Of a stretch of 64,000 nt of DNA, positions 12,331-50,434 are shown piece by piece. Under the pieces are notes generated by a model that saw only the letters and a program-made list of their open reading frames with translations, was not told where the DNA came from and did not search any database. Positions within the stretch are counted from its first letter, which is position 1; every line of letters starts with the position of its first letter. This stretch comes from an uncultured Bdellovibrionales bacterium (GTDB lineage: Bacteria; Patescibacteriota; Minisyncoccia; Moranbacterales; DUUL01), in contig CAYQVD010000005.1 in assembly GCA_964421125.1 (NCBI GenBank), positions 867-64,866 on the forward strand, given 5' to 3'. The translations under genes were made by a program, and so were the position numbers.

Positions 12331-12366
12331 ATCCCCCCCCCACAGCCCTAATTAATACACACCTTT

Positions 12367-12448
12367 AAATTTGAAGTAATGTATTTTCAAGTGTCAGGCC
12401 ATTCCTATGGAATTTTGGGAGAAAATATGTTATTCCAAATTTAAAAAA
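12367..12448 (+). repeat. ~80-bp inverted-repeat (MITE-like) element, copy 1
   Basis: ~85% identical to 13099-13180. Terminal inverted repeats are AAATTTGAAGTAA ... TTATTCCAAATTT. It is intergenic between rtcB and the kinase gene. Confidence 0.7.
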
Positions 12449-13089: not shown

Positions 13090-13098
13090 CTTTAATTT

Positions 13099-13180
13099 AA
13101 ATTTGGAATAATGTATTTTCGAGTGTCAGACCATTCCTATGGGATTTTGGGAAAAAATATGTCATTCCAAATTTAAAAAA
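13099..13180 (+). repeat. ~80-bp inverted-repeat (MITE-like) element, copy 2
   Basis: Direct repeat of 12367-12448, with terminal inverted repeats AAATTTGGAATAA ... TCATTCCAAATTT. Confidence 0.7.
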
Positions 13181-17671: not shown

Positions 17672-18994
17672 CTATAAAATCCTCAAAATTTCCTCAATAA
17701 CTTTCTTATCATTCCATGGAATTTTTTTATCACCAACCATCATTGACTCTTCTGCTCCTTTCCCTGTCACTAAAACAATATCACCAAATTTTGCCATTTT
17801 CAAAGCTTTTTTAATTGCTTCTTTTCTGTCCATAATAATCCAAAAATTTTCATCTTTTATTCTATTCTCAATCCCCCTAGAAATTTCTTCAATAATTTGA
17901 TTCGGATCTTCATGATAAGGATCTTCGTTAGTTAAAATAATGAAGTCTGCATAATTAGAAGCAATCTTCCCCATAATTGGTCTTTTTCCTCGATCACGAT
18001 CTCCACAACTTCCAAAAACCCAAAAAACTTTAGACTCATTTTTATCTGCTAAATCTCTAACTATTTCTCCAACTTTTTCCATTGAGTCAGGTGTTAAAGC
18101 ATAATCAACAATCACTGAAATCCCAGCATCATTTTTCACATATTCCATTCTTCCAGGAATTTGTTTAATCTTAAATAATCCATTTTTAATTTTATCAAGT
18201 TCTATTCCCTGCGACAAACCAACACAAATTGCTGCTAAAGCATTTTCTATATTAAATTTACCAGCTAAATTTAAATCAATCTTATTTTTATTAACAATAA
18301 AACTAGTGCTTGATATTTTTTCTTCGATATCGCATGCAACTATATTAGTAGCACTCCCCACCTCTCCCTTAGGGATTTCCATCGAATAACTATATTTCAA
18401 ATCAACTTTGTGCCTTAAAAAATTTTCAAAAAATTCATTTTCCAAGTTAACCACTGAAACTTTAGGAATTTTCCTGCTAGACATTTTATTAAACCAAAAA
18501 CGTTTTTCATTAAGAATTGCAAATAATTTTTCTTTTGCCACGCTATAATTTTTCATATCTTTATGATAGTCAAGATGTTCTCGTGTCACATTCGTCAATA
18601 CTGCCACATCGAAATCAATTCCCCAAGTTCTATTTTGATCAAGAGCATGCGAAGAAGTTTCTAAAATAATATATTCACAACCAGCCCGAACCGCTTTATG
18701 TATAAATTTTTGTACTTGCCAAGAAGAAAGCGTGGTAAATTTTGTTTTATTTACTTGTTCCTTATCTCCGATACGAAAATTGATAGTAGAGCTAACTGCT
18801 ACTTTTGATCCATCTTCTTCTAAGACCTTTCCAATCATTTGAGTTGTAGTAGTTTTTCCATTTGTTCCCGTTACTCCAACTACAATTAAATTCCGAGAAG
18901 AAAAACCAAAGTAAAAATTAGCAACAACCGCTTTGCATAAATGAAATATATTTTTAAATCCCTGCGGAATCATTTTTTTAAATTTATGTAACAT
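17672..18994 (-). CDS. murE: Mur ligase family protein, MurE-like
   Basis: P-loop VGVTGTNGKTTTT, central VDYALTPDS (cf. the MurE DYAHTPDAL motif), and C-terminal DPNQ (cf. DNPR). The N-terminal domain is shorter than in canonical MurE. Confidence 0.6.
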   Translation of the reverse strand: MLHKFKKMIPQGFKNIFHLCKAVVANFYFGFSSRNLIVVGVTGTNGKTTTTQMIGKVLEEDGSKVAVSSTINFRIGDKEQVNKTKFTTLSSWQVQKFIHKAVRAGCEYIILETSSHALDQNRTWGIDFDVAVLTNVTREHLDYHKDMKNYSVAKEKLFAILNEKRFWFNKMSSRKIPKVSVVNLENEFFENFLRHKVDLKYSYSMEIPKGEVGSATNIVACDIEEKISSTSFIVNKNKIDLNLAGKFNIENALAAICVGLSQGIELDKIKNGLFKIKQIPGRMEYVKNDAGISVIVDYALTPDSMEKVGEIVRDLADKNESKVFWVFGSCGDRDRGKRPIMGKIASNYADFIILTNEDPYHEDPNQIIEEISRGIENRIKDENFWIIMDRKEAIKKALKMAKFGDIVLVTGKGAEESMMVGDKKIPWNDKKVIEEILRIL

Positions 18995-19002
18995 TTTTAA
19001 GA

Positions 19003-19992
19003 TTAATTAAATAAATCCTTCACTCCCTGTAAAATTCGATAAGTAAAATACCTTCTCTTATTAATTACAATATCCCAGCACCCTGGAAAGTCAACGATTT
19101 TTTCTTTTGGTGCAAAGCTGATTTTGAAACGAGTTATTCCTTTCCATAAATTCTTATCACTTTCATCAATTTTTAATCCACCAAAATCATATTTTTCACA
19201 CCCAAGCTTTTTAGCATATTTAATCGCCTCCCACTGGAGTACGTAGTTTGCCATAACATTTCGATGAATATTAGAAGATGCTCCATGTAAATAAGTCGCT
19301 ACTCCACCAAAAAAACTGACAACAATAGCTCCAATAACTTTCTCGTCATATTTTGCAAGATAGAGTTTTATTTTTTCATTATTAATTTCAGTTACCATTT
19401 TTTGATAATACTTAAACGGATGAATTGAAATCTTATCACGTTCTGCAGTTTTTTTTGAAATTTCATAAAAAATATTAATATCCTTTTCTGGATTTTCAGA
19501 TTCCTCAATTTGTACTCCCTTTTTTTCCGCTAAGCGAATATTATAACGAGTTTTTTGCTTCATTTCAGCTAAAAGTTTCTCTTCTGATTTTTCTAAATCA
19601 AGTATTAATGTTTGAGCTGGCTCATGGTTTTTCTTTGATTTTTTTATACAAAAATCTCCCCCTAAAACATTTTCAATTCCTTCTAAGTCACTTTGAGATT
19701 GTGGTTCAATTCGCAACCATCCCGCTTTCTTATTTTCACACTCTGAAATAACTTTTTTCATCACCTCGCCCAATTGCTCATCAGAAATATTTTTCAAAAA
19801 AATCGGCCCCCTTGGAACAAAAAAGTAATCCCCAACAACTGAAAGTGAATGCTTAAAGGCTCGCAAAGAAAAATTTTCCTGTTCAAAAACTAGTACTTTT
19901 TTTCCAGCACTTTCTTGAAATTTCCGCCAATGATCAGACTGTAAAAATCCACCATCGACACTATTTTCTTGATAAAATTTTTCTGAATTCAT
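19003..19992 (-). CDS. FemAB-family peptidyl/aminoacyl transferase (FemX-like lipid II branch transferase)
   Basis: The N-terminus MNSEKFYQENSVDGGFLQSDHWRKFQ matches the FemX FLQSxxW start. The track ORF begins at 20046, but those extra 18 codons run into a repeat element, so the start is placed at the ATG at 19992. Confidence 0.6.
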   Translation of the reverse strand: MNSEKFYQENSVDGGFLQSDHWRKFQESAGKKVLVFEQENFSLRAFKHSLSVVGDYFFVPRGPIFLKNISDEQLGEVMKKVISECENKKAGWLRIEPQSQSDLEGIENVLGGDFCIKKSKKNHEPAQTLILDLEKSEEKLLAEMKQKTRYNIRLAEKKGVQIEESENPEKDINIFYEISKKTAERDKISIHPFKYYQKMVTEINNEKIKLYLAKYDEKVIGAIVVSFFGGVATYLHGASSNIHRNVMANYVLQWEAIKYAKKLGCEKYDFGGLKIDESDKNLWKGITRFKISFAPKEKIVDFPGCWDIVINKRRYFTYRILQGVKDLFN

Positions 19993-20013
19993 AATTAAAA
20001 TTAATATTGAGCT

Positions 20014-20085
20014 TTTTGGATAACATATTTTCTCCCAAAATCCCATCGGAACGGCCTGACACTCGAAAATATATCATCCAAAAAG
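20014..20085 (-). repeat. Third, inverted and partly divergent copy of the 80-bp MITE-like element
   Basis: The reverse complement aligns with 12367-12448 (GGAAyGGyCTGACACTyGAAAATA core). Confidence 0.55.
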
Positions 20086-20139
20086 CTCCGTGAGTAAATA
20101 GTTAAAATATAAAAAATAATCGATTTAAAAATATTTTAT

Positions 20140-20280
20140 GGGAATAAAATTTTCTACAAAAATTTTGTCTGAAAGCCCAAATTTTATCTGGAAATCGTCT
20201 AAGGTAGTGTTGAATGTGGGTAAGATTTTCAGTAATAAAATTTAGGGCTTGAGTTTATTTTTGTAGAAAATTTTATTCCC
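20140..20280 (+). repeat. 141-bp palindromic TIR element (MITE-like or structured RNA), copy 1, downstream of ruvA
   Basis: 24-bp perfect terminal inverted repeats GGGAATAAAATTTTCTACAAAAAT / ATTTTTGTAGAAAATTTTATTCCC, with nested inner inverted repeats (AAGCCCAAATTTTA / TAAAATTTAGGGCTT). ~90% identical to 20968-21106. Confidence 0.75.
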
Positions 20281-20341
20281 AGAAAAGATTATGCTCAAAC
20301 AAAAAACACTCTTAAAAACTGTCATATTTCAGTTATTCTAA

Positions 20342-20914
20342 CTACTTTTTCATTGCCCTTAAAGCGATGGTAATTCTTTCTGATAAATCGTCAGATTCTT
20401 TTGCTGAAATTTTAGCTGCTTCTCGTGCCTCCGAAACTGAATATCCCATACTCACCAGCGCTTCAATGACTTCCTGGTCAGTCTGAGCATTTTCTTGATC
20501 ACTTTCCGATGGAAGCATGTCGACCTTGTTCTGAAGCTCTAAAATCACTCTCTCTGCGATCTTTTTCCCTACTCCTGACACTTTGGTTAGAATAGATGAG
20601 TCCTCATTAACAATGGCAGTTTTAATTGTTTTTGGAGGAGCAATGGTCAGAAGCCCAAGTCCTGCCTTCGGTCCAATACCAGAAACTCCAATCAACAATT
20701 CAAACATCTCAAGCTCTTCCTGACTAATAAAACCATAAAGAGCCAAAATATCCTCTCGAACGTGAGTGTGGATAAAAACTTCTGCCTCTTCCATAGAAAC
20801 AATTTTCCCTAAAGTCACTTCGGTCATGTGAACTTGATAGCCAACTCCACTGACATTTATAATAGCAGTATTCCCACGAACTTGATCAACTTTTCCAATC
20901 AACTTCCCTATCAT
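20342..20914 (-). CDS. ruvA: Holliday junction branch-migration protein RuvA
   Basis: 190 aa. N-terminal OB domain IGKLIGKV...GVGYQVHMT, HhH motifs GVSGIGPKAG / VSGVGKKIAERV, and a C-terminal domain III. Confidence 0.85.
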   Translation of the reverse strand: MIGKLIGKVDQVRGNTAIINVSGVGYQVHMTEVTLGKIVSMEEAEVFIHTHVREDILALYGFISQEELEMFELLIGVSGIGPKAGLGLLTIAPPKTIKTAIVNEDSSILTKVSGVGKKIAERVILELQNKVDMLPSESDQENAQTDQEVIEALVSMGYSVSEAREAAKISAKESDDLSERITIALRAMKK

Positions 20915-20967
20915 TTATTTTATACTTAATATTAAAACTTACACTGAAATATTCAAAGGTTTTTTCT

Positions 20968-21106
20968 GAGAATAAAATTTTCTACAAAAATTTTGCCTGA
21001 AAGTCCAAATTTTACCTGGAAATCGTCCAAGGTGGTGTTGAATGTGGGTAAGATTTTCAGTAGTAAAATTTAGGGCTTGAGTTCATTTTTTAGAAAATTT
21101 TATTCT
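20968..21106 (+). repeat. 139-bp palindromic TIR element, copy 2, upstream of ruvA
   Basis: Direct copy of 20140-20280, with TIRs GAGAATAAAATTTTCTACAAAAA / TTTTTTAGAAAATTTTATTCTC. Confidence 0.75.
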
Positions 21107-21248
21107 CAGAAAAAAGCACGCCTATATTTTTTAAAATATATCACCTCAATCTTAAAGACTCTACTTATAATAGCATCTCTTTACAAATTTTCCAATCTAT
21201 GTTAGGATTTGTTCATTATATTAATAAATTTATTAAATTTTCCAAGTT

Positions 21249-21512
21249 ATGCCAATCAAAGATTCTGCCAAGAAATACATGAAGGTTACTGAGAAAAAAA
21301 CTGCTTTAAACAGAAAAAGAAAGCTGAATCTCAGAGCTGCTGTAAAAGAAGTCATTGAACTTACAAAAGAAGGCAAAAAAGACGATGCTCGAAAAGCTCT
21401 TGTAAAAGCTCAAAAAGCTCTTGATAAAGCTGTGAAAACAGGTGTCATCAAAAAAAACACTGCCTCAAGAAAAAAATCACGACTTTCAGTATCAATTAAA
21501 AAAATTGCTTAA
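21249..21512 (+). CDS. rpsT: 30S ribosomal protein bS20
   Basis: 87 aa, Lys/Ala-rich, with MPIKDSAKKYMKVTEKKTALNRKRK...KKNTASRKKSRLSVSIKKI. Typical S20 length and composition. Confidence 0.8.
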   Translation: MPIKDSAKKYMKVTEKKTALNRKRKLNLRAAVKEVIELTKEGKKDDARKALVKAQKALDKAVKTGVIKKNTASRKKSRLSVSIKKIA

Positions 21513-21523
21513 ATTTCTTTGGA

Positions 21524-21560
21524 TAAATAAAATACCTCCTTATAGGAGGTATTTTATTAT
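21524..21560. terminator. Bidirectional terminator (TACCTCC-TTATA-GGAGGTA) between rpsT and the convergent GH130 gene
   Basis: A-rich run, a 7-bp stem, then ATTTTATTATT. Confidence 0.6.
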
Positions 21561-21574
21561 TAAAAAGCTTTGAT

Positions 21575-23496
21575 TTACTCTTCCATTGATCTCTTTATTT
21601 CTTTTATCAATTTCGCCAGAGAACAAGTAGCTACGCCTAAGACCTTATCTGCTGCTCCATAATAAACAAAAAGTGTTTTTCCTATTAAGACGTTCCCACA
21701 GGAAAAAACTACATTTGGAACATTGCCATTTTTCTCATAAGTAGTTATTGGTTCAAAAATCGGATTTTCAGTACGAGCAATTATCTTCTCTGGGGTTTTT
21801 AAATCAGTAAGCATTGCTCCAAGCCGATAAGCAGAATCTATTTCTGAAATACCATGATACAGAATCAACCAACTATCCTTTGTCTTTATCGGTGGTCCAT
21901 TTAATCCCACCTTCTCACTATCCCATTTTCCTTTACGAGGAATAATCCAATTGTTCTCACTGTTCATTTTTTCTTTCGAAAAATTTAGATCTTTTGAGTA
22001 CAACAGGTCCATACCATAATTATTGATTCTATGGATAGCTAAATATTTCCCTTTGATTTTTTCAGGAAAAATACAGGCATCTTTATTTGAAATAGGAGAA
22101 TCAGAAACCAAATAAGGCTTACTCCATTTCCATTTTTTCTGAATAAAATCTTTTTTTTCAATACTCGTAAGAGCCACGCGAGGTTCTTGCAATCCATTAA
22201 AAGCTGTATAAAACATATATATTTTTGATCCAATTTTAACTAGACGCGGATCCTCACAACCATAATATTGCCCTCGATCATTTTTTTCAAAATCATATTG
22301 AGGAACATACACTGGATGGTTCAATCTCTCATCGATATCAAAACCATTCTTAGATGAAGCATATCCTAAAGCAGAAATAAAATTGGGAGATTCAGCACGA
22401 TAAAGCAAATGAACCTTCCCATTTTCATATATAGCTCCCGCATTGATAGTTGATCTTGCTTCCCATTCATTTTCAGCTTTTGGCTCTAATATTGGATTTT
22501 TATTAAATCTCTTCAAAGAAAAAACGTTAGAATTTTTTTCCAAAATATTACTTATTACGTCTTTCAAATTATAAGTTGTAGCACAACAAACACTATCAGC
22601 TCCAACATAAAAAAGATGAAGTTTTTCTTTTTCAATAAAAGCACCTGAAGGGAAAACTATGTTAGGCATTTTCCCATAAAGTTCATATTCTTTTTCTGGC
22701 ACAAGCAGAGGGGTCTTGCTAACATCAATAATTTTAGATGGGTCATTTTTATCCAATAATGCAGCATGCACTTCAAATAAAGTCTCTTTTTCAGGATTGT
22801 AATAATTTCTGACGTAGGAATAAATAACCAACCTTCTTTAGTTTTGATTGGAGGAGCACCAACCTCAAAATGATCAAATTCATTCTTTGGCAACCGAAGA
22901 AGATTATTATCTGCAGATTGATACCAGTCATCCCAAAATTCTGGCGACCAAATATCTTTTTCTTTATCAAAAAAAGCTATACCAATTTTTGTAGCCGGTG
23001 GACGATCTGTGTCAATTGACAAAAGCGCCACATATTTTCCTTTAATTTTTTCAGGAAATAATATCATTGCCTTAGAATTGAAAGTGGTTACTGGATGTTT
23101 TTCAATTTTTTTAAAATCTTTCGTAATAGCTAATCCAGTCTTTATTCCATCAGGACCAAAAGGAAAACTTGAAAGTGCAGTATAAAAAATATAATACTTT
23201 TTTCCAATCTTTGTTATACGAGGATCCTCACAACCAAATTTTTTCCAATCATATTCAGGTCTAATAAAAAGTTCTCGGTTTTTAAAATTCTTCCCGTCTC
23301 GACTAGTAGCATGACCAATAGTAGAAATTTATAATTTAGCACCATCAACATCTTATGGAGCAGAAATTGCTCGATAAAAAAGATGTGTTATGCCCTTCTC
23401 TTTCAAAGGACAACCATTAAAAGTAGCCTCACTCTCCCAGCTATTTAATTCTGATGGAAGAAGAATCGGATTACATTTGTAACGCTTTGTAATCAT
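21575..23496 (-). pseudogene. Disrupted tandem GH130-like glycosidase/glycoside phosphorylase gene (two GH130 domains; two in-frame TAA stops and a frameshift)
   Basis: The C-terminal 418-aa ORF (21575-22831) contains GCEDPRL and LYRAESPNFISALGYASSKNG. The upstream frame continues through ...FPEKIKGKYVALLS...APPIKTKEGWL, then shifts frame at the GGTTGGTT repeat near 22836-22845. The N-terminal domain (from the ATG at 23496) has in-frame TAA codons near 23331 and 23355, inside the conserved YRA...IGHATSRDG block. Confidence 0.55.
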
Positions 23497-23528
23497 GTTT
23501 TATTTTTATTCAAAATTATTTATAGTAG

Positions 23529-25349
23529 TTAGACTAAAACAACCTTTTTCATAGAAACCACTTTAGGCGATTTAATCATAGATGATAAAAATTCTTTTAT
23601 TGGAGCAACAGCCACACAAACTACTGTGTCTGCCCCACCATAATAAACAAAAAGTTTTTCATCTTTAATAACAGTCCCACAAACATAAACTACTCCAGCT
23701 TTAAATCCTTCATTTTCGTAATGAAGCAATGGTTCTAGTATAGGCTGACTAGCACGGTATAATATTTTTTCCGGATTCTCGTAATCCAAAATCATTGCTC
23801 CAACTTTATATTTATTGGGATCCCGTCTATCCATGGCATGATAAAGTACTAGCCATCCAGAATCAATCTTAATTGGAGGAGCAGCCACTCCTCTTAAAAT
23901 ATTATCCCATCTGCGATCATCTGATTGATTATTCCTATAACTATCAATAACAACATTAGGTTTTTCTATTAAATCAAAATAATCAATCATTATATTAGGA
24001 GCAATACTATGTAAAATCGCAAATTTTCCTTTAATCTTTTCTGGAAAAACCACCCAATTTTTTTGAATTTCTCCTGGGCGAGAAATAAGACTTGGAGTTT
24101 TCCAATTCCACTTTTTATTTAAAAAATCAGAAACTTTTATAGAAGTTATCGCTACTCCAGGAGGACAATTTCCATTAAAAGCTACATAAGTCATATAAAT
24201 TCTTTTTCCAACAACGGTCAAACGAGGATCTTCGCACCCTCCCCATCCCCCACCTGACATATAAGGAAAAGTAAATGTTTCTTTTTGATTATTTTTTCTA
24301 AATTCAAAATATTGCGATGGAACATAGACTGGTCCCGCTAGTCTTTCATCAATTTTAATTCCATCTTTACTCGAGGCATATCCAAGAACAGAAATTCCAT
24401 CTTTCCCAATTGCCCGATAAATTAAATGTACCCTTCCATCTAAAAAAATAGATGCGGGATTAAAAACAGCTTCTGATTCCCAATAGTTCTTGCTTACTGG
24501 TGAAAGAATGGGATTGTTTTCCGTTCTTTGAAGTTGCGGTTGCAAAATAAAATCTTGCTGTTTTTTGTTTAAGGTCTTGATTTTAGAAAAAATGACTGGC
24601 GGAAGATCTGTAGCATGAAAGTTTTCTTTTTCATCTTTTCCGAAAAAAGTATATTTTCCTCGAAATTTTGTAATACCGACAGGAATAAAAGTTTGATTAT
24701 CTGGCTCCCTCCAAAAAGGCAAAGCTGCTCTCCAAATAATTTTCTTTGGATTTTTTTTATCTAAAAGAACTGCTCCAATTGAAAGTTTTTTATTATTATC
24801 TTTCGCATAATAAAAAAGCAAAATTCCTTCTGAATGATAAAAAATACTTGCTGGCATAAGACTTTTTTCGTCAAAATATCCTTTGCGAGCAGATAAAATA
24901 ATTGAAGTTTCTTTCTTATTAAAAAATCCTAATTTAATTTTTTTATCTCCAAAAAGAAACTGTCTTGATTCTCCTTTTTTTCTACTAGAAATAAACAAGC
25001 ATCCTCCATTAATCTTTGGCATTGACTGATCTTTCTTCCAGTGAATTAAGTCTGAAGAAAAAAATAAATTGGTTTTATTTTTTTTCTTAAAAACCGTCTC
25101 ATAAGAAAAAAAGTATTGCTTTTTAGAAATTTTTGAAAAACGGATATTTTTCCAACGAGCAGAATAATTTAAAGGAGTTTTTCCTTTTCCTAAAAAAAGT
25201 TTTTTTACACTTCTTTTGTTGTCCCAGTTAACCAGTTCTATTTGATTAGACTTAACTGTAGTTCGAATAAAAAATCTTTTTTTATCTTCACTAAAAGCAT
25301 TCAAATAATTGAATTTTTTTATTTTATTTTGAAAATTTTTCATTTTCAA
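23529..25349 (-). CDS. GH130-like glycosidase/phosphorylase with an N-terminal accessory beta-rich domain
   Basis: 606 aa. The C-terminal domain carries VHLIYRAIGKDGISVLGYASSKDG and GGCEDPRLTVVG (the EDPR motif of PF04041/GH130). It is a paralog of the adjacent decayed gene. Confidence 0.6.
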   Translation of the reverse strand: MKMKNFQNKIKKFNYLNAFSEDKKRFFIRTTVKSNQIELVNWDNKRSVKKLFLGKGKTPLNYSARWKNIRFSKISKKQYFFSYETVFKKKNKTNLFFSSDLIHWKKDQSMPKINGGCLFISSRKKGESRQFLFGDKKIKLGFFNKKETSIILSARKGYFDEKSLMPASIFYHSEGILLFYYAKDNNKKLSIGAVLLDKKNPKKIIWRAALPFWREPDNQTFIPVGITKFRGKYTFFGKDEKENFHATDLPPVIFSKIKTLNKKQQDFILQPQLQRTENNPILSPVSKNYWESEAVFNPASIFLDGRVHLIYRAIGKDGISVLGYASSKDGIKIDERLAGPVYVPSQYFEFRKNNQKETFTFPYMSGGGWGGCEDPRLTVVGKRIYMTYVAFNGNCPPGVAITSIKVSDFLNKKWNWKTPSLISRPGEIQKNWVVFPEKIKGKFAILHSIAPNIMIDYFDLIEKPNVVIDSYRNNQSDDRRWDNILRGVAAPPIKIDSGWLVLYHAMDRRDPNKYKVGAMILDYENPEKILYRASQPILEPLLHYENEGFKAGVVYVCGTVIKDEKLFVYYGGADTVVCVAVAPIKEFLSSMIKSPKVVSMKKVVLV

Positions 25350-34591: not shown

Positions 34592-34606
34592 ATTTTTATA
34601 ATTCAC

Positions 34607-34660
34607 CCTGTTAAATCTCGCTTTGCGGGAAATTCGCAGGAACAAATTTATTTAACAGGG
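34607..34660. repeat. Palindromic hairpin element, copy D (CCCTGTTAAAT-N32-ATTTAACAGGG)
   Basis: Perfect 11-bp arms at 34607-34617 and 34650-34660, with an internal short stem TGCG..CGCA. It sits 15 bp after the upstream stop and 13 bp before the next ATG. Confidence 0.6.
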
Positions 34661-34673
34661 TAAAAAAACAAAA

Positions 34674-35297
34674 ATGAAAAATCTTAAAACCAACTTAATT
34701 CCAAAAGATTATTTTTTAGTATCTTTTATTGCTGTATCGTTTTCTATCTTTGTTATTCCCATTATTAAAAATGTTGTAGCAATAAAAATTACTTATGCAA
34801 TAATAATCGCTGAAATTATCCTCCTTCTAATATTAGCCAATCTGGCTCTCTGGGTTGCATCTTTATTAGCAAAAAAAATTCCAATCATTCTTCAATTAGC
34901 TAAGTTTGTTGCTGTTGGAGTCTTCAATACCTTCCTTAACTGGGGAGTTGTTAATCTACTTATGTTCCTAACTCAGGCATTTGAAGGATTACTATATACT
35001 GTCTATATCATTATTGCTTTCATAATCGCTAATTTCGCCAGCTTCTTCTGGAATAAATACTGGGTCTTTCCTAAAGACAAAAAAAATCAAGACAGTGCCG
35101 AAAAAGATTATTTACAGTTCCTTCTTGTTAGTGTAATTGGGCTCCTTATTCAAGCAGGAATTGCAACTGCTTGGGTTGGGCTTATTCCAACTACTTCCAG
35201 TGCTCCACTTTGGGCAAACATCGGCTTAATTCTCGGAACTGTCTTTTCAATGGTTTGGAACTTTCTTGGATATAAATTTATCGTTTTCAAGAAATAG
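34674..35297 (+). CDS. GtrA-like family membrane protein
   Basis: 207 aa with 4-5 predicted helices. The C-terminal half KFVAVGVFNTFLNWGVVNLLMFL...FFWNKYWVF matches the GtrA-like pattern. Confidence 0.5.
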   Translation: MKNLKTNLIPKDYFLVSFIAVSFSIFVIPIIKNVVAIKITYAIIIAEIILLLILANLALWVASLLAKKIPIILQLAKFVAVGVFNTFLNWGVVNLLMFLTQAFEGLLYTVYIIIAFIIANFASFFWNKYWVFPKDKKNQDSAEKDYLQFLLVSVIGLLIQAGIATAWVGLIPTTSSAPLWANIGLILGTVFSMVWNFLGYKFIVFKK

Positions 35298-35542
35298 TCT
35301 TTTTATATCTCGCAAAAGGGGCCTACAATGGCTTCTTTTTTATTTTAAATTTTTCCAAATTAAGATCCCTTTTTTACAAGACACAATATGTCATTTTTTG
35401 AACGTAATGGTATTAAAACAGAAAACTTATCCTTTGAGTAAATGTCTCTTTAGCTACTTAAATATTTGAAAGCAAAAATAAATTCAGTGAAAAAAATTAC
35501 ATATTGTGTCTTAACAATCCAATCCTTAAAAAATTTACCGAA

Positions 35543-35615: not shown

Positions 35616-37298
35616 ATGGCAACTCTTTACCGGAAATATCGTCCAACAAAATTTTCTGAAACAACTGGTCAACGTCACGTGGTACGAACACTTTCAGGCG
35701 CAATTAAAAATAATCGAATTGGTCATGCTTTCCTTCTTACTGGTCCTCGAGGAATTGGAAAAACAACTCTAGCTAGAATCTTTTCAAAGACCGTTAATTG
35801 TCTTGATCCACAAAAATCAGAAGAAGATACCATTGCAATTGAACCTTGTAACAAATGCGAGAATTGCAAAAAAATTATGGAGAATAAGGCAATTGATATG
35901 ATTGAGATTGATGCTGCTTCACATACGGGAGTTGATAATATTCGTCAATTAAAAGAAGGGATTAATCTCCCACCAACTGGATTGAAATACAAGATGTATA
36001 TTATCGATGAAGTTCACATGCTTTCAATCGGAGCATTCAATGCTCTCTTAAAAACACTGGAAGAGCCCCCAGCTCATGCAATCTTCATTCTTGCAACCAC
36101 TGAACTTCATAAGGTACCAGAAACGATTATATCAAGATGTCAGCGTTTCGATCTGCATCGACTCACTCAAAATCAAATCATTGAAAGACTGAAACAAATC
36201 TCAAAAAGTGAAAAAGTTGAAGTTGAAATTGAAGCCCTAGAGAACATCGCCCTTGAATCTGAAGGAGGAATGCGAGATGCTGAATCTCTCCTAGGACAAA
36301 TACTTTCATTTGAAGATAAAAAAATAACTGCTAAGGAGGTTAGTAAAATTCTTGGAACATCGTCTCGAAAAAATGTTCTTGATTTTCTAAAAACTATTAT
36401 CGAAAATGACACTGAATCCACAATAAATCTAATCAATAAACTTCAAGATGAGGGCTTTAATTTAAGAAACTTCAATAAGCAACTCCTTTCTCTATTAAGA
36501 AGCTGTCTAATTGCAAAAATAAATCCAGGATCTTTTTCAAAAATCATAACAAACCTCACAAAAGAACAATCTGAATTAATTAATTCCATTGCACAAAAAA
36601 CTGAACTCCCAACACTATTGAAGCTAACAGAGTTATTCCAAAAAAGTCTTCTTAAATTCAAAGAGACTTCAATTCCCCAACTCCCTCTTGAAATAGCTAT
36701 AATTGAACATCATATTTTAACTACAAAGCCTGCAGAAACTCAAACCAAAAGTAATCCTCAATCAACCCAGGAAAATCAAAAAAAAAATCCTTCTGAAATA
36801 AAAGAAGTAAAAACAGCTATTTCTAAGATAATTACGAGAGAAATAGAGCCTTCTATAGAAGCTTCTACAGAAGCCTCTACTAAAAAAACGAAAAACTCCA
36901 ATGAAAAAAATGAACAAAAAACACCCCTGTCTAATTCAAAACAAATAAAAACCTCCTTAGGAGACATTATTGAAAAATGGAGCGAACTTATTGAGATAGT
37001 TAAGCCAGCTAATCATTCTATTCATGCTTTCTTAAAAAACTGTGTTCCAGCTGGAATTTCAGATAATAAGCTATATATAAAAACCAAGTATGACTTCTAT
37101 AAAGACAAGCTTAATGAGGCTAGTAGTAAGTTGACAGTTCAAGAGGCTCTTGCTAAAATCACCAAAGAAAAAATATCAGTTATAGTAATAACGGAAAAAG
37201 AAGTAGTGGGAATGAAATTCAATGAAAAAGAAAGTGGACCAGGAGAAAAAAACGTCCTCCACGATGCAATGCAGATGATTGGAGGAAAATTAGTTTAG
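35616..37298 (+). CDS. dnaX: DNA polymerase III subunits tau/gamma
   Basis: N-terminal YRPTKFSETTGQRHVVRTLSGAIKNNRIGHAFLLTGPRGIGKTT, a zinc module CNKCENCKK, and Walker B IIDEVHMLS. Confidence 0.9.
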   Translation: MATLYRKYRPTKFSETTGQRHVVRTLSGAIKNNRIGHAFLLTGPRGIGKTTLARIFSKTVNCLDPQKSEEDTIAIEPCNKCENCKKIMENKAIDMIEIDAASHTGVDNIRQLKEGINLPPTGLKYKMYIIDEVHMLSIGAFNALLKTLEEPPAHAIFILATTELHKVPETIISRCQRFDLHRLTQNQIIERLKQISKSEKVEVEIEALENIALESEGGMRDAESLLGQILSFEDKKITAKEVSKILGTSSRKNVLDFLKTIIENDTESTINLINKLQDEGFNLRNFNKQLLSLLRSCLIAKINPGSFSKIITNLTKEQSELINSIAQKTELPTLLKLTELFQKSLLKFKETSIPQLPLEIAIIEHHILTTKPAETQTKSNPQSTQENQKKNPSEIKEVKTAISKIITREIEPSIEASTEASTKKTKNSNEKNEQKTPLSNSKQIKTSLGDIIEKWSELIEIVKPANHSIHAFLKNCVPAGISDNKLYIKTKYDFYKDKLNEASSKLTVQEALAKITKEKISVIVITEKEVVGMKFNEKESGPGEKNVLHDAMQMIGGKLV

Positions 37299-37538: not shown

Positions 37539-38726
37539 TTAATAACTATTAAAGATTCCATAAGGAGTATCAAGAACTACTTTATTTCCCTTATTTTCGT
37601 TAGATTCGCAAATTCCAAGATCAAATAATTCAACACCAGTTTCAGTTGATATTTCCTGAAGGATTTTTTCAAATTCAATATTGTCCTCACCAACAACATC
37701 AATTCCCACACCACAATTAAAATCCTCGAACATCTCTTCCCACGTAGTACCTGATTCATTTTGAATAAGTTGAAAAATTCCAGGCGGACTCAACATTTTC
37801 TTTTTGTATAAAATATCTTGACCAATATGACCAATTTTTGTGGCACCTCCTCCCGTATTCATGCTAATCCCATGAAGCATTTCAAGCATATTCTCTTCTT
37901 TGAGTTTCTTAACTATTCTTTTTATAACAATCGCCCACTGTCTAGTTGGAGAAAGAATGGCTTCACTTACGGTCATCCCTCCTAATGTCGCTGGTTTATC
38001 ATCGACAAGATATTTGCCTCTATAACCATGATTGCCACCACTTAAAAATGGATACTTTTCTGAATATTTTGAATTCATTAAATCAATTCTTGATAAAGAA
38101 ACTCCATTAGACATTAAACCAGAATTTTTCTCAGTTTCCCATTTAGCCTTCCCATCACTAGCAAACCCATATATTTTGTCTCCTGGTTTAATATTACCGG
38201 AAATTACATCCGACTTTTTTGTTCTAGCATATATAGACACATCAAAAATCATACTTTGAACTTGAGTCGGAAGATCTGCAGTTTCACCACCAAGAAAATA
38301 AGTCATATCAAACCCGTGTTTTTTATACATCTCCAATAATTCAGAAATACGCAATGCAATTTGTTCCATTATTAAATCCTTTGGCAGATTAATTGCATTA
38401 ATATTAATAACATCAGTTATAACCCATTTACCTGATAAAAATCCGCTAGCAGCAATGTCTCCCGTATTCATAGATATAGCATCATCTACTGCTCCCTGAA
38501 AAATAGTCTTGTCCCCAGTTTCAAAATAATGCAAAGCGCGTTGAACAATCTTACTTCCATCACCGTCCATATGTTGAGTAAAAACAGTTTCAGGAATTTC
38601 TGGATCATTAACAATATTCACAAATGCATTAGGATAATCATTCGCAATATGCTTTTTAAATATTTTTCTAACACTTGTCTTTCCAGCATCAATTCCAAGT
38701 TCTTGATATTTATTTGATTTATTCAT
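37539..38726 (-). CDS. purM: Phosphoribosylformylglycinamidine cyclo-ligase (AIR synthetase, PurM-like)
   Basis: DGDGSKIV (cf. DGVGTK), LSPTRQW (cf. LAPTRIY), NTGGG and FNCGVG motifs are present. 395 aa, longer than the typical PurM. Confidence 0.7.
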   Translation of the reverse strand: MNKSNKYQELGIDAGKTSVRKIFKKHIANDYPNAFVNIVNDPEIPETVFTQHMDGDGSKIVQRALHYFETGDKTIFQGAVDDAISMNTGDIAASGFLSGKWVITDVININAINLPKDLIMEQIALRISELLEMYKKHGFDMTYFLGGETADLPTQVQSMIFDVSIYARTKKSDVISGNIKPGDKIYGFASDGKAKWETEKNSGLMSNGVSLSRIDLMNSKYSEKYPFLSGGNHGYRGKYLVDDKPATLGGMTVSEAILSPTRQWAIVIKRIVKKLKEENMLEMLHGISMNTGGGATKIGHIGQDILYKKKMLSPPGIFQLIQNESGTTWEEMFEDFNCGVGIDVVGEDNIEFEKILQEISTETGVELFDLGICESNENKGNKVVLDTPYGIFNSY

Positions 38727-38743
38727 GAGAATTTTAAAATCAA

Positions 38744-41700
38744 TTATTTATTATTATCACACCATTTTCTGGCATTCTGAAACATTCGCAACCATGGCGA
38801 AAACTCATTACTTTTAATTTCTTCAGACATCCATGGCCATTGCCATTTCAGAAAAGATCTTTCTGGATGAGGCATTAATGCTAAATGTCTACCATCAGAA
38901 GAACAAAGTCCAGTGATTCCTTCTGGAGATCCATTAGGATTAAAAGGATATTTTTCAGTTTGGTTACCGGCATCATCAACAAAAGCAACTGCTACTGAAT
39001 TCCTCCCTTTAACATCAGAAAAAATCTTTTTATCTGGAAAATTAAGTCTTCCTTCGCCATGAGCTATCCACGTACCCAAAATTGACCCTGCCATTCCTTC
39101 TAGCATAATAGATGGGCTTTCTAAAATTTTCACATTAACCCATCTTGACTCAAAACGATTTGAAGTATTATGCACAAAACGTGGCTGAACTTCATCACTA
39201 ATTCCTCTCCAAGGAACCCAACCTAAAAGTCCCATCAACTGACAACCATTGCAAATACCCAGAGAAAAAGTATCTTTGCGATCATAGAATCTATCAAACA
39301 TTTCTCTAACTTCATTATTATAACGAATCGTACTAGCCCATCCTTTTGCTGAACTAAATACATCAGCATAAGAAAATCCACCCACAAAAACAATCCCCCT
39401 AAAATCGTCCAAGGCAACCTTTCCCTTCAAGAGATCCTCCATCACAACATCCCAGATATCAAATCCAACCGAATAAAAAGCACTGGTCATTTCTCTGTCA
39501 CCATTACTCCCCTCCTCACGAATAATGGCAACTTTTGGCTTATTTTCATTTTTCAAAACCTCTTCAGATGTTTGATTAGGCGTAAAAGTCAATTTATTAA
39601 TAGGATTTTCACGATCGAAAATATTCTCTTTTTCCTCCTCGGCATTTGCCGGATTTATTTGCAATCTTTCTAATTGATAACTAGTTTCCTCCCAGACTTG
39701 TCGAAGTATACGCATGTCTTCATCGAGGACAATTTTGTTATTAAATTTTATATTTACATTATTATCTTTTATAGTCTCCCCTAATCGAAATGAATTTTCT
39801 GAAATATTATATTTGCTCAAAACTTTTTTCAAATTATCGATCTGATTTTTCTTGATCTCCAAGACTAATCCAAGCTCTTCATTCAAAAAGTAAGAAAGAA
39901 CATCAACATCTGATAAGTCGTAATTGATCTTAAATCCGCAGTTACCAGAAAAAGCCATTTCCAGTAAAGTGGTAATCAAGCCTCCATCTGATTTATCATG
40001 TCCAGCCAATATAATATCTTTATCAATCATTTCTTGAACAGCTAGAAAAGAATTCTTTAAAATATCAACATCGACATCTGGTGATTCGTCACCAATTTGA
40101 TTTAAAGTTTGGGCAAAAGCTGATCCACCCATCCTAGTCTTTCCTTTCCCTAAATCAATGAACCATAAATCGCTTTCTCCGGCCTTTTTTATATCAGGAG
40201 TAATCACCTTTTCTATGTCAGGAACTGTTACATAAGCTGAAATAGCTAACTCCCCTGGTGATTTTACAATCTCTTCTCCAACCTTAGCAGCCATTGACAA
40301 ACTGTCCTTGCCACCATCAATTGCAATTCCTAAATCAATCATTAAATCACGCATAGCCGTAGCTGCATCATAAAGCCTACTAGCTTCACCAGGAAGCTTA
40401 GCTGCCCACATCCAATTTCCAGAACATTTTATATGCTCTAAATCGCTTATTTTTGCCCATATTATATTTGTTAAAGCTTCTCCAACGGCCATTCTTGCTC
40501 CAGCTCTGGGGTCAACAATCATTTTAATCGGTTGTTCTCCTATGGAAATAGCAGCTCCAGATTTACCAAAATGGCTTTGGGCAATAACGGCTACATCAGA
40601 AACAGGCAACTGCAACGGACCACAGCATTGCTGTTGTGCAATTAACCCAGTAACACTACGATCAACTTTATTAGTAAGGAATCTTTTTGATCCAACAGAT
40701 AAAAGCCTGAGAACATTACTTAAAACATCTTTTAACAATAAATCTTTTGAGAAATCAAAGGGCTTTAATTCTCTTTTTTCTTTTTTATCTTTAAATACTT
40801 TCTGTGGCATCTCTCCTAATATTTTTTTAAGCTCGAGATCAACAACAATTGAATCATCCTTACTATCTACCAATTCTATCTTACCATTTCCTGTAACTTC
40901 TCCAAGAATCTCACAATTAGTTCTTTCTCTCTTGCAAATCGCTTTAAATTCATCAATTCTTTCAGGAGAAATTAATAAGGCATTTCTCTCTTGAAATTCA
41001 GCTCCCCAAATTTCAAGAACCGAAAGTGTGTTATCTCCAATCTTAACTTTCCTTATATCCACTTTGCCTCCCACAGGCTCTACAATTTCCGTGACAACAT
41101 TGCAAGGTCCACCAGCACCTTGATCATGAATACTGATAATTGGATTTTTATCTCCGAGCTCAACACATGTTCTCACTACTCTGTTCATCTTTTGTTCCAT
41201 TTCAGCATCTCCTCTTTGAACTGCGTTAAAATCAAGATTAGAAGCATTCTCTCCCTGAATCATACTAGAAGCAGATCCTCCTCCCATTCCAATTCTATAT
41301 GCTGGACCTCCGATTTGAATAATAACCATGCCCTTTTTCGGCTCATCCTTTTCAATATGTCTATTGTCCATTTGCCCAACTCCACCTGAAAACATAATTG
41401 GCTTTAAATATTCTTGACGTTCACCACCAGGCAATTCCATACCAAATGAACGAGTATACCCCTGAATAACAGGTTCACCAAATTTATTCCCATAATCAGA
41501 AGCTCCATTGCTGGCCTCTATCTCTATCTTTAATGGAGACGCTAAGTTTGCGGGATACTTAAAATCTTTATTCTCCCAGGGTAAATTATAATTTGGAATA
41601 TTAAGATTTCCAACGCAATACCCAGTAGTTCCTGCAACAACTAATCCTCCCTTCCCAATCCCCTCTACATCTCGAATTCTTCCACCACCACCAGTTTCTG

Positions 41701-42559: not shown

Positions 42560-42565
42560 CTTTTT

Positions 42566-43102
42566 TTATGTTATATTTTTTAAAACAAACTCTAACCGCT
42601 CCTCTTTTGAACTCATTCTTGGAACTTTAATTAACGGGCAATTAAGTTTCTTGTAAATTTTTTCTAATAATTTCTGAAGTTTTTTCTGCTCCTTTTCGCT
42701 TTCCGTTCGGGCATAATCTTTTTTATAAGGCAAGATATCAAACAAGAAAACTTTTCTATATTCACATTTTTTTATTATTTCTTTCAAATATTCATCACTC
42801 ATAAGACCACACAACTCATAGTATGCATCGCTATCTGGTACTGCTCTATCGAAAAAAATTATCTCATCTTTCGACAGATTGTTTTCAATGTCAATTTTTA
42901 AATCCAAAATTCCTTTTTGAAATTTTAATTCATCCTTTCTAATCTCTTCTAGTGTACGCCCCTTACTAATTTCCTGATCAATATAAATCCTAGCAGTTTC
43001 ATAAATCACTTTATATCCTTTTTTTTCTAACAATTCCAATACAGAAGTTTTTCCCGAGTGAGGCGCTCCTGTCACTACATACCAATTATTCACTTTTGTC
43101 AT
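42566..43102 (-). CDS. AAA_28-family P-loop ATPase/kinase
   Basis: VVTGAPHSGKTSVLELLEKKGYKVIYETAR...FFDRAVPDSDAYYE matches the PF13521-like pattern. It is inserted between purCE and purL. Confidence 0.55.
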   Translation of the reverse strand: MTKVNNWYVVTGAPHSGKTSVLELLEKKGYKVIYETARIYIDQEISKGRTLEEIRKDELKFQKGILDLKIDIENNLSKDEIIFFDRAVPDSDAYYELCGLMSDEYLKEIIKKCEYRKVFLFDILPYKKDYARTESEKEQKKLQKLLEKIYKKLNCPLIKVPRMSSKEERLEFVLKNIT

Positions 43103-43117
43103 TTTAAAAATAACTAC

Positions 43118-45884: not shown

Positions 45885-46066
45885 ATCACTTTTTCATGAA
45901 GTATATCTTTAAATATATTCTAGCATAATTATTGCTAACAACAAAGTACTTTCGAAGTATTAACTCCTATTTCTTTATATAAACTCTAAATTAAATCATT
46001 AAGTAAATAAAAAAGAAGGCAATCTTACGTTTAAGATCGCCTTCTCTTCTAATACATAAATCTAAA

Positions 46067-47062: not shown

Positions 47063-47269
47063 CTCCCTCTTTTAGAATTTTAAAAAATTTAAATGATGTT
47101 TCATTTTATTTTTATTATTTTTCAAAAAACAAAGAGCCGAGCACGACGCTAGACTCCCTCCTATTTCCTAAATTTAATACTAAAGGGTTTATTATTTAAA
47201 AGCAAGAAAATATTGGTTTATATTATTTTAGATGCTATAATTCATTAAAATAATTCTATTAAAAAAATT

Positions 47270-50276: not shown

Positions 50277-50434
50277 TTTTATTTATTTTTATTTTCTATT
50301 ACTATTAAACTAGAAATTAAATGTTTGAGTGCAGTTCGAGGCAAAAATGAGCATTTGAGTAAAGCTGTATCAAATATACAGCGAACGAAAAGCGCAGTTT
50401 TTAACAAAGAAATGTGCCAAACATAAAATTTCTA

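What the first reader, a model, noticed from the sequence alone, without database searches (positions are those of the whole stretch)
20140..21106. ruvA is bracketed by two copies of a 140-bp palindromic element with 24-bp terminal inverted repeats (MITE-like or structured RNA)
Seen in sequence: 20140-20280 and 20968-21106 are ~90% identical direct repeats. Each begins GGGAATAAAATTTTCTACAAAAAT and ends with its reverse complement, and each contains nested inner inverted repeats, so the whole unit can fold into a long hairpin. One copy sits upstream and one downstream of ruvA. Inference: either they are non-autonomous transposable elements (MITEs), which would be noteworthy in a reduced genome with no visible transposase, or they are paired cis-regulatory or small-RNA structures controlling ruvA.
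Basis: seen in the sequence. Interest (0 to 1): 0.6.

Follow-up and report, generated by a model that had tools for sequence, protein, structure and literature searches.

The report
Dispensable hairpin repeats flanking ruvA
Two copies of a 155-bp hairpin-forming repeat really do bracket ruvA in this small Patescibacteria (CPR) genome, but close relatives with the same gene order lack them or keep only a stump, so they look like a young, dispensable selfish-type intergenic repeat rather than a ruvA regulator.

Summary
Copy A (20134-20286) and copy B (20960-21115) are about 93% identical direct repeats on either side of ruvA (20342-20914, minus strand). Each folds into one long hairpin of about 60 pairs (z = -8 to -12).

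The element is not conserved. Three relatives with the same rpsT-ruvA-femAB-murE order (RuvA 81-90% identical) have no trace of it. The closest relative (RuvA 96%) has nothing at site B. At site A it keeps only the first ~50 nt, fused to the femAB start codon, which looks like a deletion.

The same spacers in relatives hold other, unrelated hairpin elements. One of these recurs elsewhere in the window, and another is a gene-less copy of an IVS-like hairpin that carries an S23p gene.

The ten substitutions between the copies include two compensatory pairs and break only one pair (P about 0.01), so pairing is maintained.

There is no Rfam match, no terminator tail, no target-site duplication, and no transposase in the 64 kb. 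No third copy was found, but the rest of the genome could not be searched.

Verdict: a lineage-restricted MITE/REPIN/ERIC-like palindromic repeat, i.e. a new member of a known kind, of modest interest.

The parts
20134..20286 (.). Family-1 hairpin repeat, copy A. It lies between the ruvA stop codon and the femAB-like gene.
   Evidence: Direct repeat with copy B. Its 34-nt inverted arms are 20130-20163 and 20257-20290. Hairpin fold with z = -9.3 on the + strand and -12.4 on the - strand. The orthologous site in L129 keeps only the ~50 nt next to ruvA.
20960..21115 (.). Family-1 hairpin repeat, copy B. It has the same orientation as copy A and lies between the divergent ruvA and rpsT genes, about 65 nt upstream of the conserved rpsT promoter block.
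   Evidence: Inverted arms 20960-20989 and 21086-21115, 97% complementary. Fold z = -8.1 and -8.0. Absent from the rpsT-ruvA spacer of L126, L127, L128 and L129.
20342..20914 (-). ruvA, the bracketed gene. It is not part of the element.
   Evidence: 190 aa with RuvA_N and HHH_5 domains. The rpsT-ruvA-femAB-murE order is the same in relatives that lack the repeat.
20009..20088 (-). Family-2 hairpin, copy 3. This is an unrelated 82-nt hairpin repeat that shares the ruvA-femAB spacer with copy A, just 5' of femAB.
   Evidence: 24-nt arms, 92% complementary. It is 87-91% identical to 12364-12445 and 13096-13177. Covariation is shown. It is missing in L129 together with most of copy A.
21162..21248 (+). 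Conserved rpsT promoter and leader block. This marks the boundary of the variable part of the rpsT-ruvA spacer.
   Evidence: Aligned and conserved in the window, L126, L127, L128 and L129. Promoter-like site TTTACA-17-TAGGAT at 21180-21208.

Best explanation
The two units are copies of a young, lineage-restricted, non-coding palindromic repeat. It belongs to the same general kind as bacterial MITEs, REPINs and ERIC elements, and it has colonised the two intergenic spacers flanking ruvA in a Moranbacteria-like Patescibacteria (CPR) genome.

Shown:
- The element is missing from the same locus in relatives.
- It is half-deleted in the closest relative.
- It is non-coding.
- It forms a hairpin of about 60 pairs whose pairing has been preserved since the copies diverged.
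- In relatives, the same spacers are occupied by other, unrelated hairpin elements that also occur at other loci.

Inferred:
- The element was copied from one spacer to the other (or from a third copy elsewhere). This would have been done by a trans-acting enzyme that recognises the hairpin or inverted ends, or by recombination. The timing is after the split from the L126 lineage (RuvA 90%) and around the split from the L129 lineage (RuvA 96%).
- It persists because an intergenic hairpin is nearly harmless.
- No terminator separates ruvA from femAB, so copy A is probably transcribed within a ruvA-femAB-murE mRNA. Its 29-bp near-perfect basal stem would be a natural RNase III substrate or 3' end stabiliser there, as in ERIC, Correia and IVS elements. 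Any effect on ruvA or femAB expression would be a side effect, not a conserved control.
- That the copies bracket ruvA is incidental. A second hairpin family brackets the tmk-like gene in the same way.
For: (1) Presence and absence. L126 (RuvA 90%), L127 (85%) and L128 (81%) share the rpsT/ruvA/femAB(/murE) order but give no BLAST or covariance-model hit to the element.

(2) The closest relative. L129 has 182/190 identical RuvA residues and genes 84-91% identical at the nucleotide level. Its rpsT-ruvA spacer is 124 nt (window 334) and its ruvA-femAB spacer is 92 nt (window about 350). It retains only about 57 nt, orthologous flank included, of the ruvA-proximal end of copy A at 91% identity. 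This stump is joined directly to the femAB ATG at a short AATTTTA(T/A)T microhomology.

(3) Other elements in the same spacers. L128 carries a family-3 hairpin upstream of ruvA that is 86% identical to window 54446-54534. L126, L127 and L128 carry a family-4 hairpin downstream of ruvA. Its arms match the 66-nt inverted repeats flanking the S23p/IVS-protein gene at window 56233-56702.

(4) Maintained pairing. Of 10 substitutions between the copies, 4 form two compensatory pairs (G:C to A:U and U:A to C:G), 2 give G:U, and 1 breaks a pair. 99.2% of cells are paired. In simulation, P(at least 2 compensated pairs) is about 0.01 and the joint probability with at most 1 broken pair is about 0.002. 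The same pattern is reported for REPIN hairpins (PMC3116915).

(5) Not coding and not a known RNA. No frame stays open with a start codon in both copies. There is no Rfam hit at gathering score, and only noise at E up to 10.

(6) Real sequence. It is identical in four assemblies.
Against: - Only two adjacent copies are known. No third, dispersed copy was found in the 64-kb window, in about 160 kb of relatives' loci, in GTDB species representatives with a two-arm pattern, in IMG/VR, or in phage and plasmid collections.
- No target-site duplication flanks either copy.
- No transposase, integrase or RAYT-like protein was found among about 40 window ORFs.
- No clean empty site could be reconstructed, because the spacers are too diverged.
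- Mobility is therefore inferred from phylogenetic distribution, not demonstrated.
- Maintenance of pairing would also fit a functional RNA.
Confidence: 0.62

Rival explanations
1. A recently evolved but functional cis-acting RNA structure. The hairpins are transcribed with the neighbouring genes and act as RNase III processing sites, mRNA stabilisers or insulators. They would set ruvA, femAB or rpsT expression, and selection on the RNA maintains the pairing.
For: - There are compensatory substitutions and almost no broken pairs between the copies.
- The + strand contains 3-4 G:U pairs that would be A:C mismatches on the other strand, and it folds 8-13 kcal/mol better.
- Both copies have the same orientation.
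- No terminator-like site lies between ruvA and femAB, so copy A is probably inside an mRNA.
- The unrelated families 2 and 3 always lie upstream of, and in the sense of, a gene, and they show sense-strand G:U pairs and covariation.
- A long hairpin of some family sits between ruvA and femAB in the window, L126, L127 and L128.
Against: - The closest relative, L129, has no hairpin in either spacer; its ruvA-femAB spacer folds with z = 0.0. Its genes are intact, so the structure is dispensable.
- The strand favoured by G:U pairs is antisense to ruvA and femAB.
- There is no own promoter or terminator and no Rfam family.
- Compensatory change is also typical of selfish hairpin repeats (PMC3116915).
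Confidence: 0.22
2. A purely local duplication. One spacer hairpin was copied to the other side of ruvA by a local recombination or replication-slippage event, with no transposition machinery. It would be a two-copy, locus-specific repeat.
For: Only two copies are known. They are 828 bp apart and in direct orientation. There is no target-site duplication, no transposase in the window, and no other copy in any searched collection.
Against: - The duplicated segment is exactly the hairpin unit. Similarity starts and stops at the ends of the inverted arms, with no flanking DNA copied. That is not what segmental duplication gives.
- Other hairpin families in this lineage demonstrably sit at different loci in different genomes.
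- The rest of the genome was not searchable, so a count of two is only a lower bound.
Confidence: 0.12
3. ruvA is a mobile cassette. The direct repeats would be recombination sites (attC-like or att-like) left by insertion of a ruvA-carrying circle.
For: A single gene is bracketed by about 150-bp imperfect palindromes in direct orientation. This geometry resembles cassette-attC arrays.
Against: - rpsT-ruvA-femAB-murE synteny is conserved in five genomes, four of which lack the repeats.
- RuvA phylogenetic similarity follows that of its neighbours: L129 genes are all 84-91% identical at the nucleotide level.
- There is no integrase in the window.
- The tmk-like gene is bracketed in the same way by a different repeat, while in L128 the tmk flanks are only 22 and 40 nt.
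Confidence: 0.02
4. A transcription terminator or attenuator hairpin.
For: Copy A lies just 3' of ruvA, and the hairpin is very stable.
Against: The stem is flanked by a T-run on the 5' side and an A-run on the 3' side on both strands. This is the opposite of a terminator and merely extends the stem. The terminator scan finds nothing at either copy. The true rpsT terminator-like hairpin at 21517-21567 looks quite different.
Confidence: 0.02

Closest known systems
ERIC / IRU elements of Enterobacteriaceae (about 127-bp imperfect palindromes classed as MITEs)
   Same: Similar size. The whole unit, not only the termini, folds into one long imperfect hairpin. It is located in intergenic spacers that are probably co-transcribed. 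Presence varies between related genomes. ERIC elements are known to alter stability of the flanking mRNA (PMC3184786).
   Different: No sequence similarity. ERIC-type elements have TA-flanked termini and target duplications, which are not seen here. ERIC occurs in tens to hundreds of copies; only 2 copies are known here.
REPINs (REP doublets forming hairpins, mobilised by RAYT transposases)
   Same: Hairpin-forming, non-coding and extragenic, with no target-site duplication. Compensatory changes on the two sides of the hairpin are common in REPINs (PMC3116915), as is seen between copies A and B.
   Different: REPs are short, G+C-rich and highly abundant, and they cluster next to a RAYT gene. 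This element is 27-31% G+C. It has no RAYT or IS200-like gene in the 64 kb, and only two copies are known.
Correia / NEMIS elements of Neisseria and classical bacterial MITEs
   Same: 100-160 bp long, with terminal inverted repeats of about 25 bp, no transposase gene, and intergenic locations that differ between close strains.
   Different: Correia elements duplicate a TA target and carry IHF sites and promoters. No duplication is seen here. Promoter-like hexamers at the element are no more frequent than in shuffles.
23S rRNA intervening sequences (IVS), e.g. the 428-nt Coxiella IVS with an S23p ORF
   Same: A selfish hairpin whose terminal inverted repeats form a stem of about 28 bp that RNase III cleaves (PMC4990558). 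The window itself holds such an architecture outside rRNA: a PF05635 gene at 56273-56635 between 66-nt inverted arms. A gene-less derivative of it occupies the ruvA-femAB spacer in relatives, at the position of copy A.
   Different: Family 1 has no sequence similarity to that element. It carries no ORF, and neither copy found is in an rRNA gene (the window holds none). RNase III cleavage is untested.

Membership tests
MITE (miniature inverted-repeat transposable element) | Small (about 50-500 bp), non-coding, with terminal inverted repeats | tested here: met
   153-156 bp. Arms of 30-34 nt at 94-97% complementarity. No ORF with a start codon is shared by both copies.
MITE (miniature inverted-repeat transposable element) | Flanking target-site duplication (direct repeat) | tested here: not met
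   The flanks are AAAAATA|...|GATTATG for copy A and TCAAAGG|...|GCACGCC for copy B. No direct repeat appears at any plausible boundary.
MITE (miniature inverted-repeat transposable element) | Multiple dispersed copies in the genome | tested here: inconclusive
   There are 2 copies in 64 kb, both at one locus. The window is nearly the whole 65,080-nt contig. The organism's genome is not in genome contigs, and the metagenome scan was wasted on chance matches.
MITE (miniature inverted-repeat transposable element) | Cognate transposase acting in trans, with matching inverted repeats | tested here: inconclusive
   No transposase or integrase Pfam hit among about 40 window ORFs. The rest of the genome is unavailable.
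MITE (miniature inverted-repeat transposable element) | Insertion polymorphism between related genomes | tested here: met
   Absent at both sites in L126, L127 and L128. In L129 it is absent at site B and truncated at site A.
REPIN / REP | Association with a RAYT (IS200-like Y1 transposase) gene, and high copy number | tested here: inconclusive
   No such gene in the window, and only 2 copies seen. A genome-wide test was not possible.
REPIN / REP | Hairpin maintained by compensatory change | tested here: met
   2 compensated pairs and 1 broken pair among 10 substitutions; P about 0.01.
Conserved structured RNA (Rfam-type family) | Match to a curated covariance model | tested here: not met
   Only two tRNAs reach gathering score in the window. 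At E up to 10 the region gives only sub-threshold noise, e.g. plant miRNA precursor models and JA02.
Conserved structured RNA (Rfam-type family) | Conservation at the orthologous locus in relatives | tested here: not met
   Absent or truncated in all four relatives with the same synteny.
Intrinsic terminator | G+C-rich stem followed by a U-tract | tested here: not met
   AU-rich stem followed by an A-run. There is no hit in the terminator scan.
Integron attC / gene cassette | The bracketed gene is mobile, an integrase is nearby, and R''/R' core sites are present | tested here: not met
   ruvA synteny is conserved without the repeats, and there is no integrase. By eye, no GTTRRRY-type core was noticed at the ends of either copy in the sequence read; no pattern search for it was run.
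IVS-like hairpin element (RNase III-excised) | Long terminal stem cleaved by RNase III | not testable with these tools
   A 29-bp near-perfect basal stem is present. Cleavage needs experiment.

The most novel reading that the evidence does not exclude
Family 1 may be one of several families of an uncharacterised class of CPR hairpin elements that live at the RNA level. These would be IVS-like modules that insert into transcribed spacers (and perhaps rRNA) and are tolerated because RNase III cuts them out of the transcript. They would replace one another at the same intergenic sites, and some (family 2, with a conserved 32-nt loop and freely covarying stem, always sense-oriented just 5' of a gene) would have been recruited as portable cis-regulatory RNA modules. 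The ORF-bearing S23p element and its gene-less copy in the ruvA spacer of relatives would be the autonomous and non-autonomous pair of such a class.
Probability: 0.15. Interest if true: 0.6.

Novelty: new member of a known kind. Interest (0 to 1): 0.33.

Why it matters
Patescibacteria (CPR) genomes are small and streamlined and are usually described as poor in repeats and mobile DNA. I found no paper in the searchable library that describes MITE-, REP- or ERIC-like repeats in them.

Here, at least four unrelated hairpin-repeat families turn over in the intergenic spacers of housekeeping operons. This happens on the time-scale of species divergence. It shows that even these genomes carry an active or recently active population of small palindromic elements.

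Practical consequences:
- Direct repeats of 153 bp around ruvA could delete it by recombination.
- Such repeats may fragment metagenomic assemblies.
- They can be mistaken for riboswitches or sRNAs.

The specific ruvA pair is, on present evidence, an ordinary example of this known kind of element, not a regulator.

Tried and rejected
BLAST of the whole element against all of them showed only 20-30-nt chance arm matches.

(2) The genome-contig scan with a two-arm pattern gave two hits, in Sulfurospirillum and Ilyobacter MAGs. Both are an unrelated, non-hairpin locus. It also showed that the window's own genome is not in that collection.

(3) Viral contig scans with the loop pattern and the two-arm pattern found nothing. 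Distant BLAST against phages and plasmids found nothing.

(4) I concatenated the three longest stop-free translations of the element and searched the 5.8-billion protein set, hoping for spurious ORF calls over other copies. Nothing was found.

(5) The covariance model R1 was run over the window and about 160 kb of relatives. It found only the two copies; weaker hits are generic hairpins of other families.

(6) A coding reading was rejected. A 35-aa ATG ORF (20138-20245) exists in copy A only, and copy B has no start codon.

(7) A terminator reading was rejected because of the A-run rather than a U-run.

(8) A 6S RNA or other known long-hairpin RNA was rejected. There is no Rfam hit even at E up to 10, and the element is absent in relatives.

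(9) The P0141 look-up, which could have given a 61-kb contig of a close relative, returned no record.

(10) A search for an exact empty site or excision footprint at site B failed, because the spacers are too diverged to align.

Full report
**1. The observation**

The repeat finder reports one 151-nt direct-repeat pair, 20123-20273 and 20951-21101, at 88% without gaps. BLAST aligns 20134-20286 with 20962-21113 at 92.8% over 153 nt.

Each copy is an imperfect palindrome.
- The outer arms are 34 nt at 94% complementarity in copy A (20130-20163 / 20257-20290).
- They are 30 nt at 97% in copy B (20960-20989 / 21086-21115).

The 22-nt arm motif is found four times in the window, against 0.04 expected.

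Both strands of both copies fold into one long hairpin of about 60 pairs.
- RNA, + strand: -57.8 and -58.9 kcal/mol.
- RNA, - strand: -50.0 and -46.2 kcal/mol.
- z-scores are -8.0 to -12.4, and no shuffle folds as well.
- As ssDNA: -39.7 kcal/mol, z = -10.8.

ruvA (20342-20914, minus strand) lies between the copies. Four contigs from independent ENA and JGI assemblies are 100% identical to the window across both copies.

**2. Context**

RuvA homologues carry the names Patescibacteria or Moranbacteria. The window is almost the whole of a 65,080-nt contig.

The local gene order on the minus strand is ruvA, a femAB-like gene (19003 to about 19992) and murE (17672-18994). rpsT (21249-21512) is divergent on the plus strand, followed by GH130 paralogues.

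No transposase, integrase or RAYT-like domain was found in about 40 window ORFs. Rfam finds only two tRNAs at gathering score and only noise in a permissive scan of 19900-21400.

No intrinsic-terminator-like site lies at either copy. The hairpin is flanked by a T-run on the 5' side and an A-run on the 3' side, the reverse of a terminator. Promoter-like hexamers are no more frequent than in shuffles.

**3. Relatives**

Four relatives with the same gene order were retrieved.

| Locus | RuvA identity |
|---|---|
| L126 | 90% |
| L127 | 85% |
| L128 | 81% |
| L129 | 182/190 = 96% |

L129 was found through the RuvA 90% cluster. Its genes are 84-91% identical to the window at the nucleotide level.

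None of L126, L127 or L128 has any similarity to the element by word-7 BLAST or by a covariance model built from the two copies.

In the rpsT-ruvA spacer, the roughly 90 nt next to rpsT (promoter and leader) are conserved in all. The rest is not alignable and differs in length: window 334 nt, L126 159, L127 336, L128 280, L129 124.

L129 has no copy B. At site A it keeps about 57 nt, including 8 nt of orthologous flank and the first ~50 nt of the element on the ruvA side, at 91% identity to copy A. This is followed immediately by the femAB start codon. The junction lies in AATTTTAtT, which resembles the TAATTTTAATT that precedes the femAB ATG in the window. The simplest reading is a 231-nt deletion in L129 that removed the rest of copy A together with the neighbouring family-2 hairpin. 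The remaining L129 spacer has no structure (z = 0.0).

The element was therefore present at site A in the common ancestor of the window organism and L129. It was gained after the split from L126. It is dispensable.

**4. The spacers are a playground for other hairpin elements**

- **Family 3.** In L128 the position of copy B is taken by a 100-nt hairpin that is 86% identical to window 54446-54534, upstream of an unrelated 547-aa gene. The two carry compensatory differences at the stem base.
- **Family 4.** In L126, L127 and L128 the position of copy A is taken by a 135-190-nt AT-rich hairpin. Its two arms match the 66-nt inverted repeats that flank the PF05635 '23S rRNA intervening-sequence protein' gene in the window (56233-56298 / 56637-56702 around 56273-56635) and in L130-L132. 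Family 4 is thus a gene-less derivative of an IVS-like element. The Coxiella IVS for comparison is a selfish hairpin with a 28-bp inverted-repeat stem and an S23p ORF, excised by RNase III (PMC4990558).
- **Family 2.** This 82-nt hairpin has three copies in the window: 12364-12445, 13096-13177, and 20009-20088 on the minus strand. Two of them bracket the tmk-like gene exactly as family 1 brackets ruvA. In L128 the tmk flanks are only 22 and 40 nt, but a family-2 relative lies upstream of rtcB.

Bracketing of a gene is therefore a by-product of elements settling in successive spacers of an operon. It is not specific to ruvA.

**5. Is the hairpin under constraint?**

The copies differ by 10 substitutions and one 1-nt indel in the 153 aligned columns.
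- Four substitutions form two fully compensated pairs. In alignment A4 these are columns 12/150 (G:C to A:U) and 58/106 (U:A to C:G).
- Two turn C:G into U:G.
- One breaks a pair in a 2-bp helix.
- Three are unpaired.

99.2% of cells are paired. With only two sequences the tool's own shuffle control is uninformative. I therefore simulated 10 random substitutions (90% transitions) on copy A. The probability of at least two compensated pairs is about 0.01, and jointly with at most one broken pair about 0.002.

Pairing has thus been preserved. This does not discriminate between an RNA function and a selfish hairpin, because compensatory changes are common in REPIN hairpins too (PMC3116915).

The + strand has 3-4 G:U pairs that are A:C on the - strand. 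That is a weak hint that the + strand, which is antisense to ruvA and sense to rpsT, is the structured one. With two robust sites I do not rely on it.

**6. What I could not establish**

The copy number in the whole genome is unknown.
- The organism is not in the GTDB-representative collection, where the two-arm pattern found only two chance hits.
- My single metagenome scan used too unspecific an arm pattern and returned 119 chance matches.
- Viral contigs, phages and plasmids have nothing.
- A search for spurious ORF calls over the element in 5.8 billion proteins found nothing.
- Further contigs of close relatives (L130-L134, about 64 kb) have no copy.
- No target-site duplication is visible.
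- No clean empty site could be reconstructed.

**7. Interpretation**

The best-supported reading (about 0.6) is a young, lineage-restricted palindromic intergenic repeat of the MITE/REPIN/ERIC kind. It was gained in the ancestor of the window+L129 clade, duplicated to or from the other side of ruvA, and is already decaying in L129. Its hairpin is maintained either because the mobilising machinery needs it or because the transcribed hairpin must stay tightly closed to be harmless.

ruvA has no terminator, so copy A is probably part of a ruvA-femAB-murE transcript. Its 29-bp basal stem could then be cut by RNase III or could stabilise the upstream mRNA, as documented for ERIC and related repeats (PMC3184786) and for IVSs. 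This step is inference.

Rival readings:
- A recently evolved functional RNA structure is possible (about 0.2), but it is undercut by L129.
- A purely local two-copy duplication remains possible (about 0.1) until the genome is searched.
- Cassette, terminator, coding and known-RNA readings are rejected.

**8. Novelty and score**

The kind of element is well known. This family is undescribed, and I found no report of such repeats in Patescibacteria in the searchable literature. I rate it as a new member of a known kind, with interest about 0.33.

The more interesting lead is collateral. Several unrelated hairpin families, one tied to an S23p/IVS-like element and one (family 2) with a conserved loop, a covarying stem (10 of 34 pairs) and strict sense orientation upstream of genes, replace each other in the same spacers of a streamlined genome.

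Noticed in passing
window 12364-12445 (+), 13096-13177 (+), 20009-20088 (-); L128 11800-11888 (-): Family 2 is an 82-nt hairpin with a conserved inner stem and loop (ATATTTTC GAGTGTCAGGCCATTCCTATGGGATTTTGGGA GAAAATAT) and a freely varying outer stem. Across 4 copies, 10 of 34 pairs show compensatory changes, and the G:U pairs occur only on the sense strand. All copies lie just 5' of a gene and in its sense (tmk-like, murJ/flippase-like, femAB-like; rtcB in L128). Two copies bracket the tmk-like gene. There is no Rfam hit. It looks like a portable structured RNA module.
   Followed up: partly
window 54442-54540; L128 1785-1872; L134 2840-2950: Family 3 is a 100-nt hairpin with 37-nt arms, upstream of an unannotated 547-aa gene in the window. 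An 86% identical copy sits upstream of ruvA in L128, exactly where the window has copy B. The two differ by compensatory changes at the stem base.
   Followed up: partly
window 56233-56702 (gene 56273-56635); L130 9423-9898; L126 10644-10796; L127 3758-3888; L128 2556-2700: A PF05635 '23S rRNA intervening-sequence protein' (S23p) gene sits between 66-nt inverted repeats (82% complementary) in an intergenic site, not in rRNA. The same arms without the gene (family 4) fill the ruvA-femAB spacer in three relatives. This looks like an autonomous and gene-less pair of an IVS-like hairpin element.
   Followed up: partly
window 35378-35512; L133 3224-3360: A 135-nt hairpin with 31-nt arms lies upstream of dnaX (35616-37298). 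Its inner motif TTTTTTGAAC...AGTGAAAAAAA resembles family 3. It is conserved at 87% in the L129-type relative (L133), unlike family 1.
   Followed up: partly
window 34593-34673: An 80-nt hairpin (24-nt arms TTTTTATAATTCACCCTGTTAAAT / ATTTAACAGGGTAAAAAAACAAAA) ends directly at the start codon of a GtrA-family gene (34674-35297). It could be a leader structure. There is no Rfam hit.
   Followed up: no
window 20214-20252 and 21042-21080 (+ strand): The apical region of both family-1 copies holds, on the + strand, a Shine-Dalgarno-like AAGGTAGTG / AAGGTGGTG. Four nt further on is an ATG that opens a 12-codon ORF (MWVRFSV[I/V]KFRA). This is probably chance. By eye, the start regions of ruvA, femAB, rpsT and tmk show no Shine-Dalgarno sequence.
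   Followed up: no
L127 2830-2925: In the relative L127, about 95 nt of G+C-rich palindromes (CCCCCTTTCTAAAAGGGGG; CCCTCCTTCGCAAAGGAGGG) are inserted in the otherwise conserved region just upstream of the rpsT start codon (start codon at ~2807-2809 on the minus strand). This is yet another kind of small palindromic insert in the same spacer.
   Followed up: no
window 21575-25349: There are tandem GH130 (mannoside phosphorylase-like) paralogues: 21575-22831, fragments at 22657-23067 and 23353-23496, and 23529-25349. They share 70-nt similarity blocks (family D3), and the middle one appears disrupted. L126 has no GH130 genes here; rpoC abuts rpsT instead.
   Followed up: no
window 47742-54327 and 54581-56224: A TrwB/VirD4-like coupling ATPase (844 aa) is followed by small ORFs and a 1022-aa protein without Pfam hits. 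This may be a type IV secretion or DNA-uptake-like module. It is conserved in relatives L130-L132.
   Followed up: no
L133 5280-5403 vs window 47233-47355: In the L129-type relative, the region after tRNA-Gln (window ~37.4 kb) is joined to sequence that lies at ~47.2 kb (NUDIX gene) in the window. This indicates a ~10-kb indel or rearrangement, covering the purine-synthesis genes 37539-47062, between close relatives.
   Followed up: no
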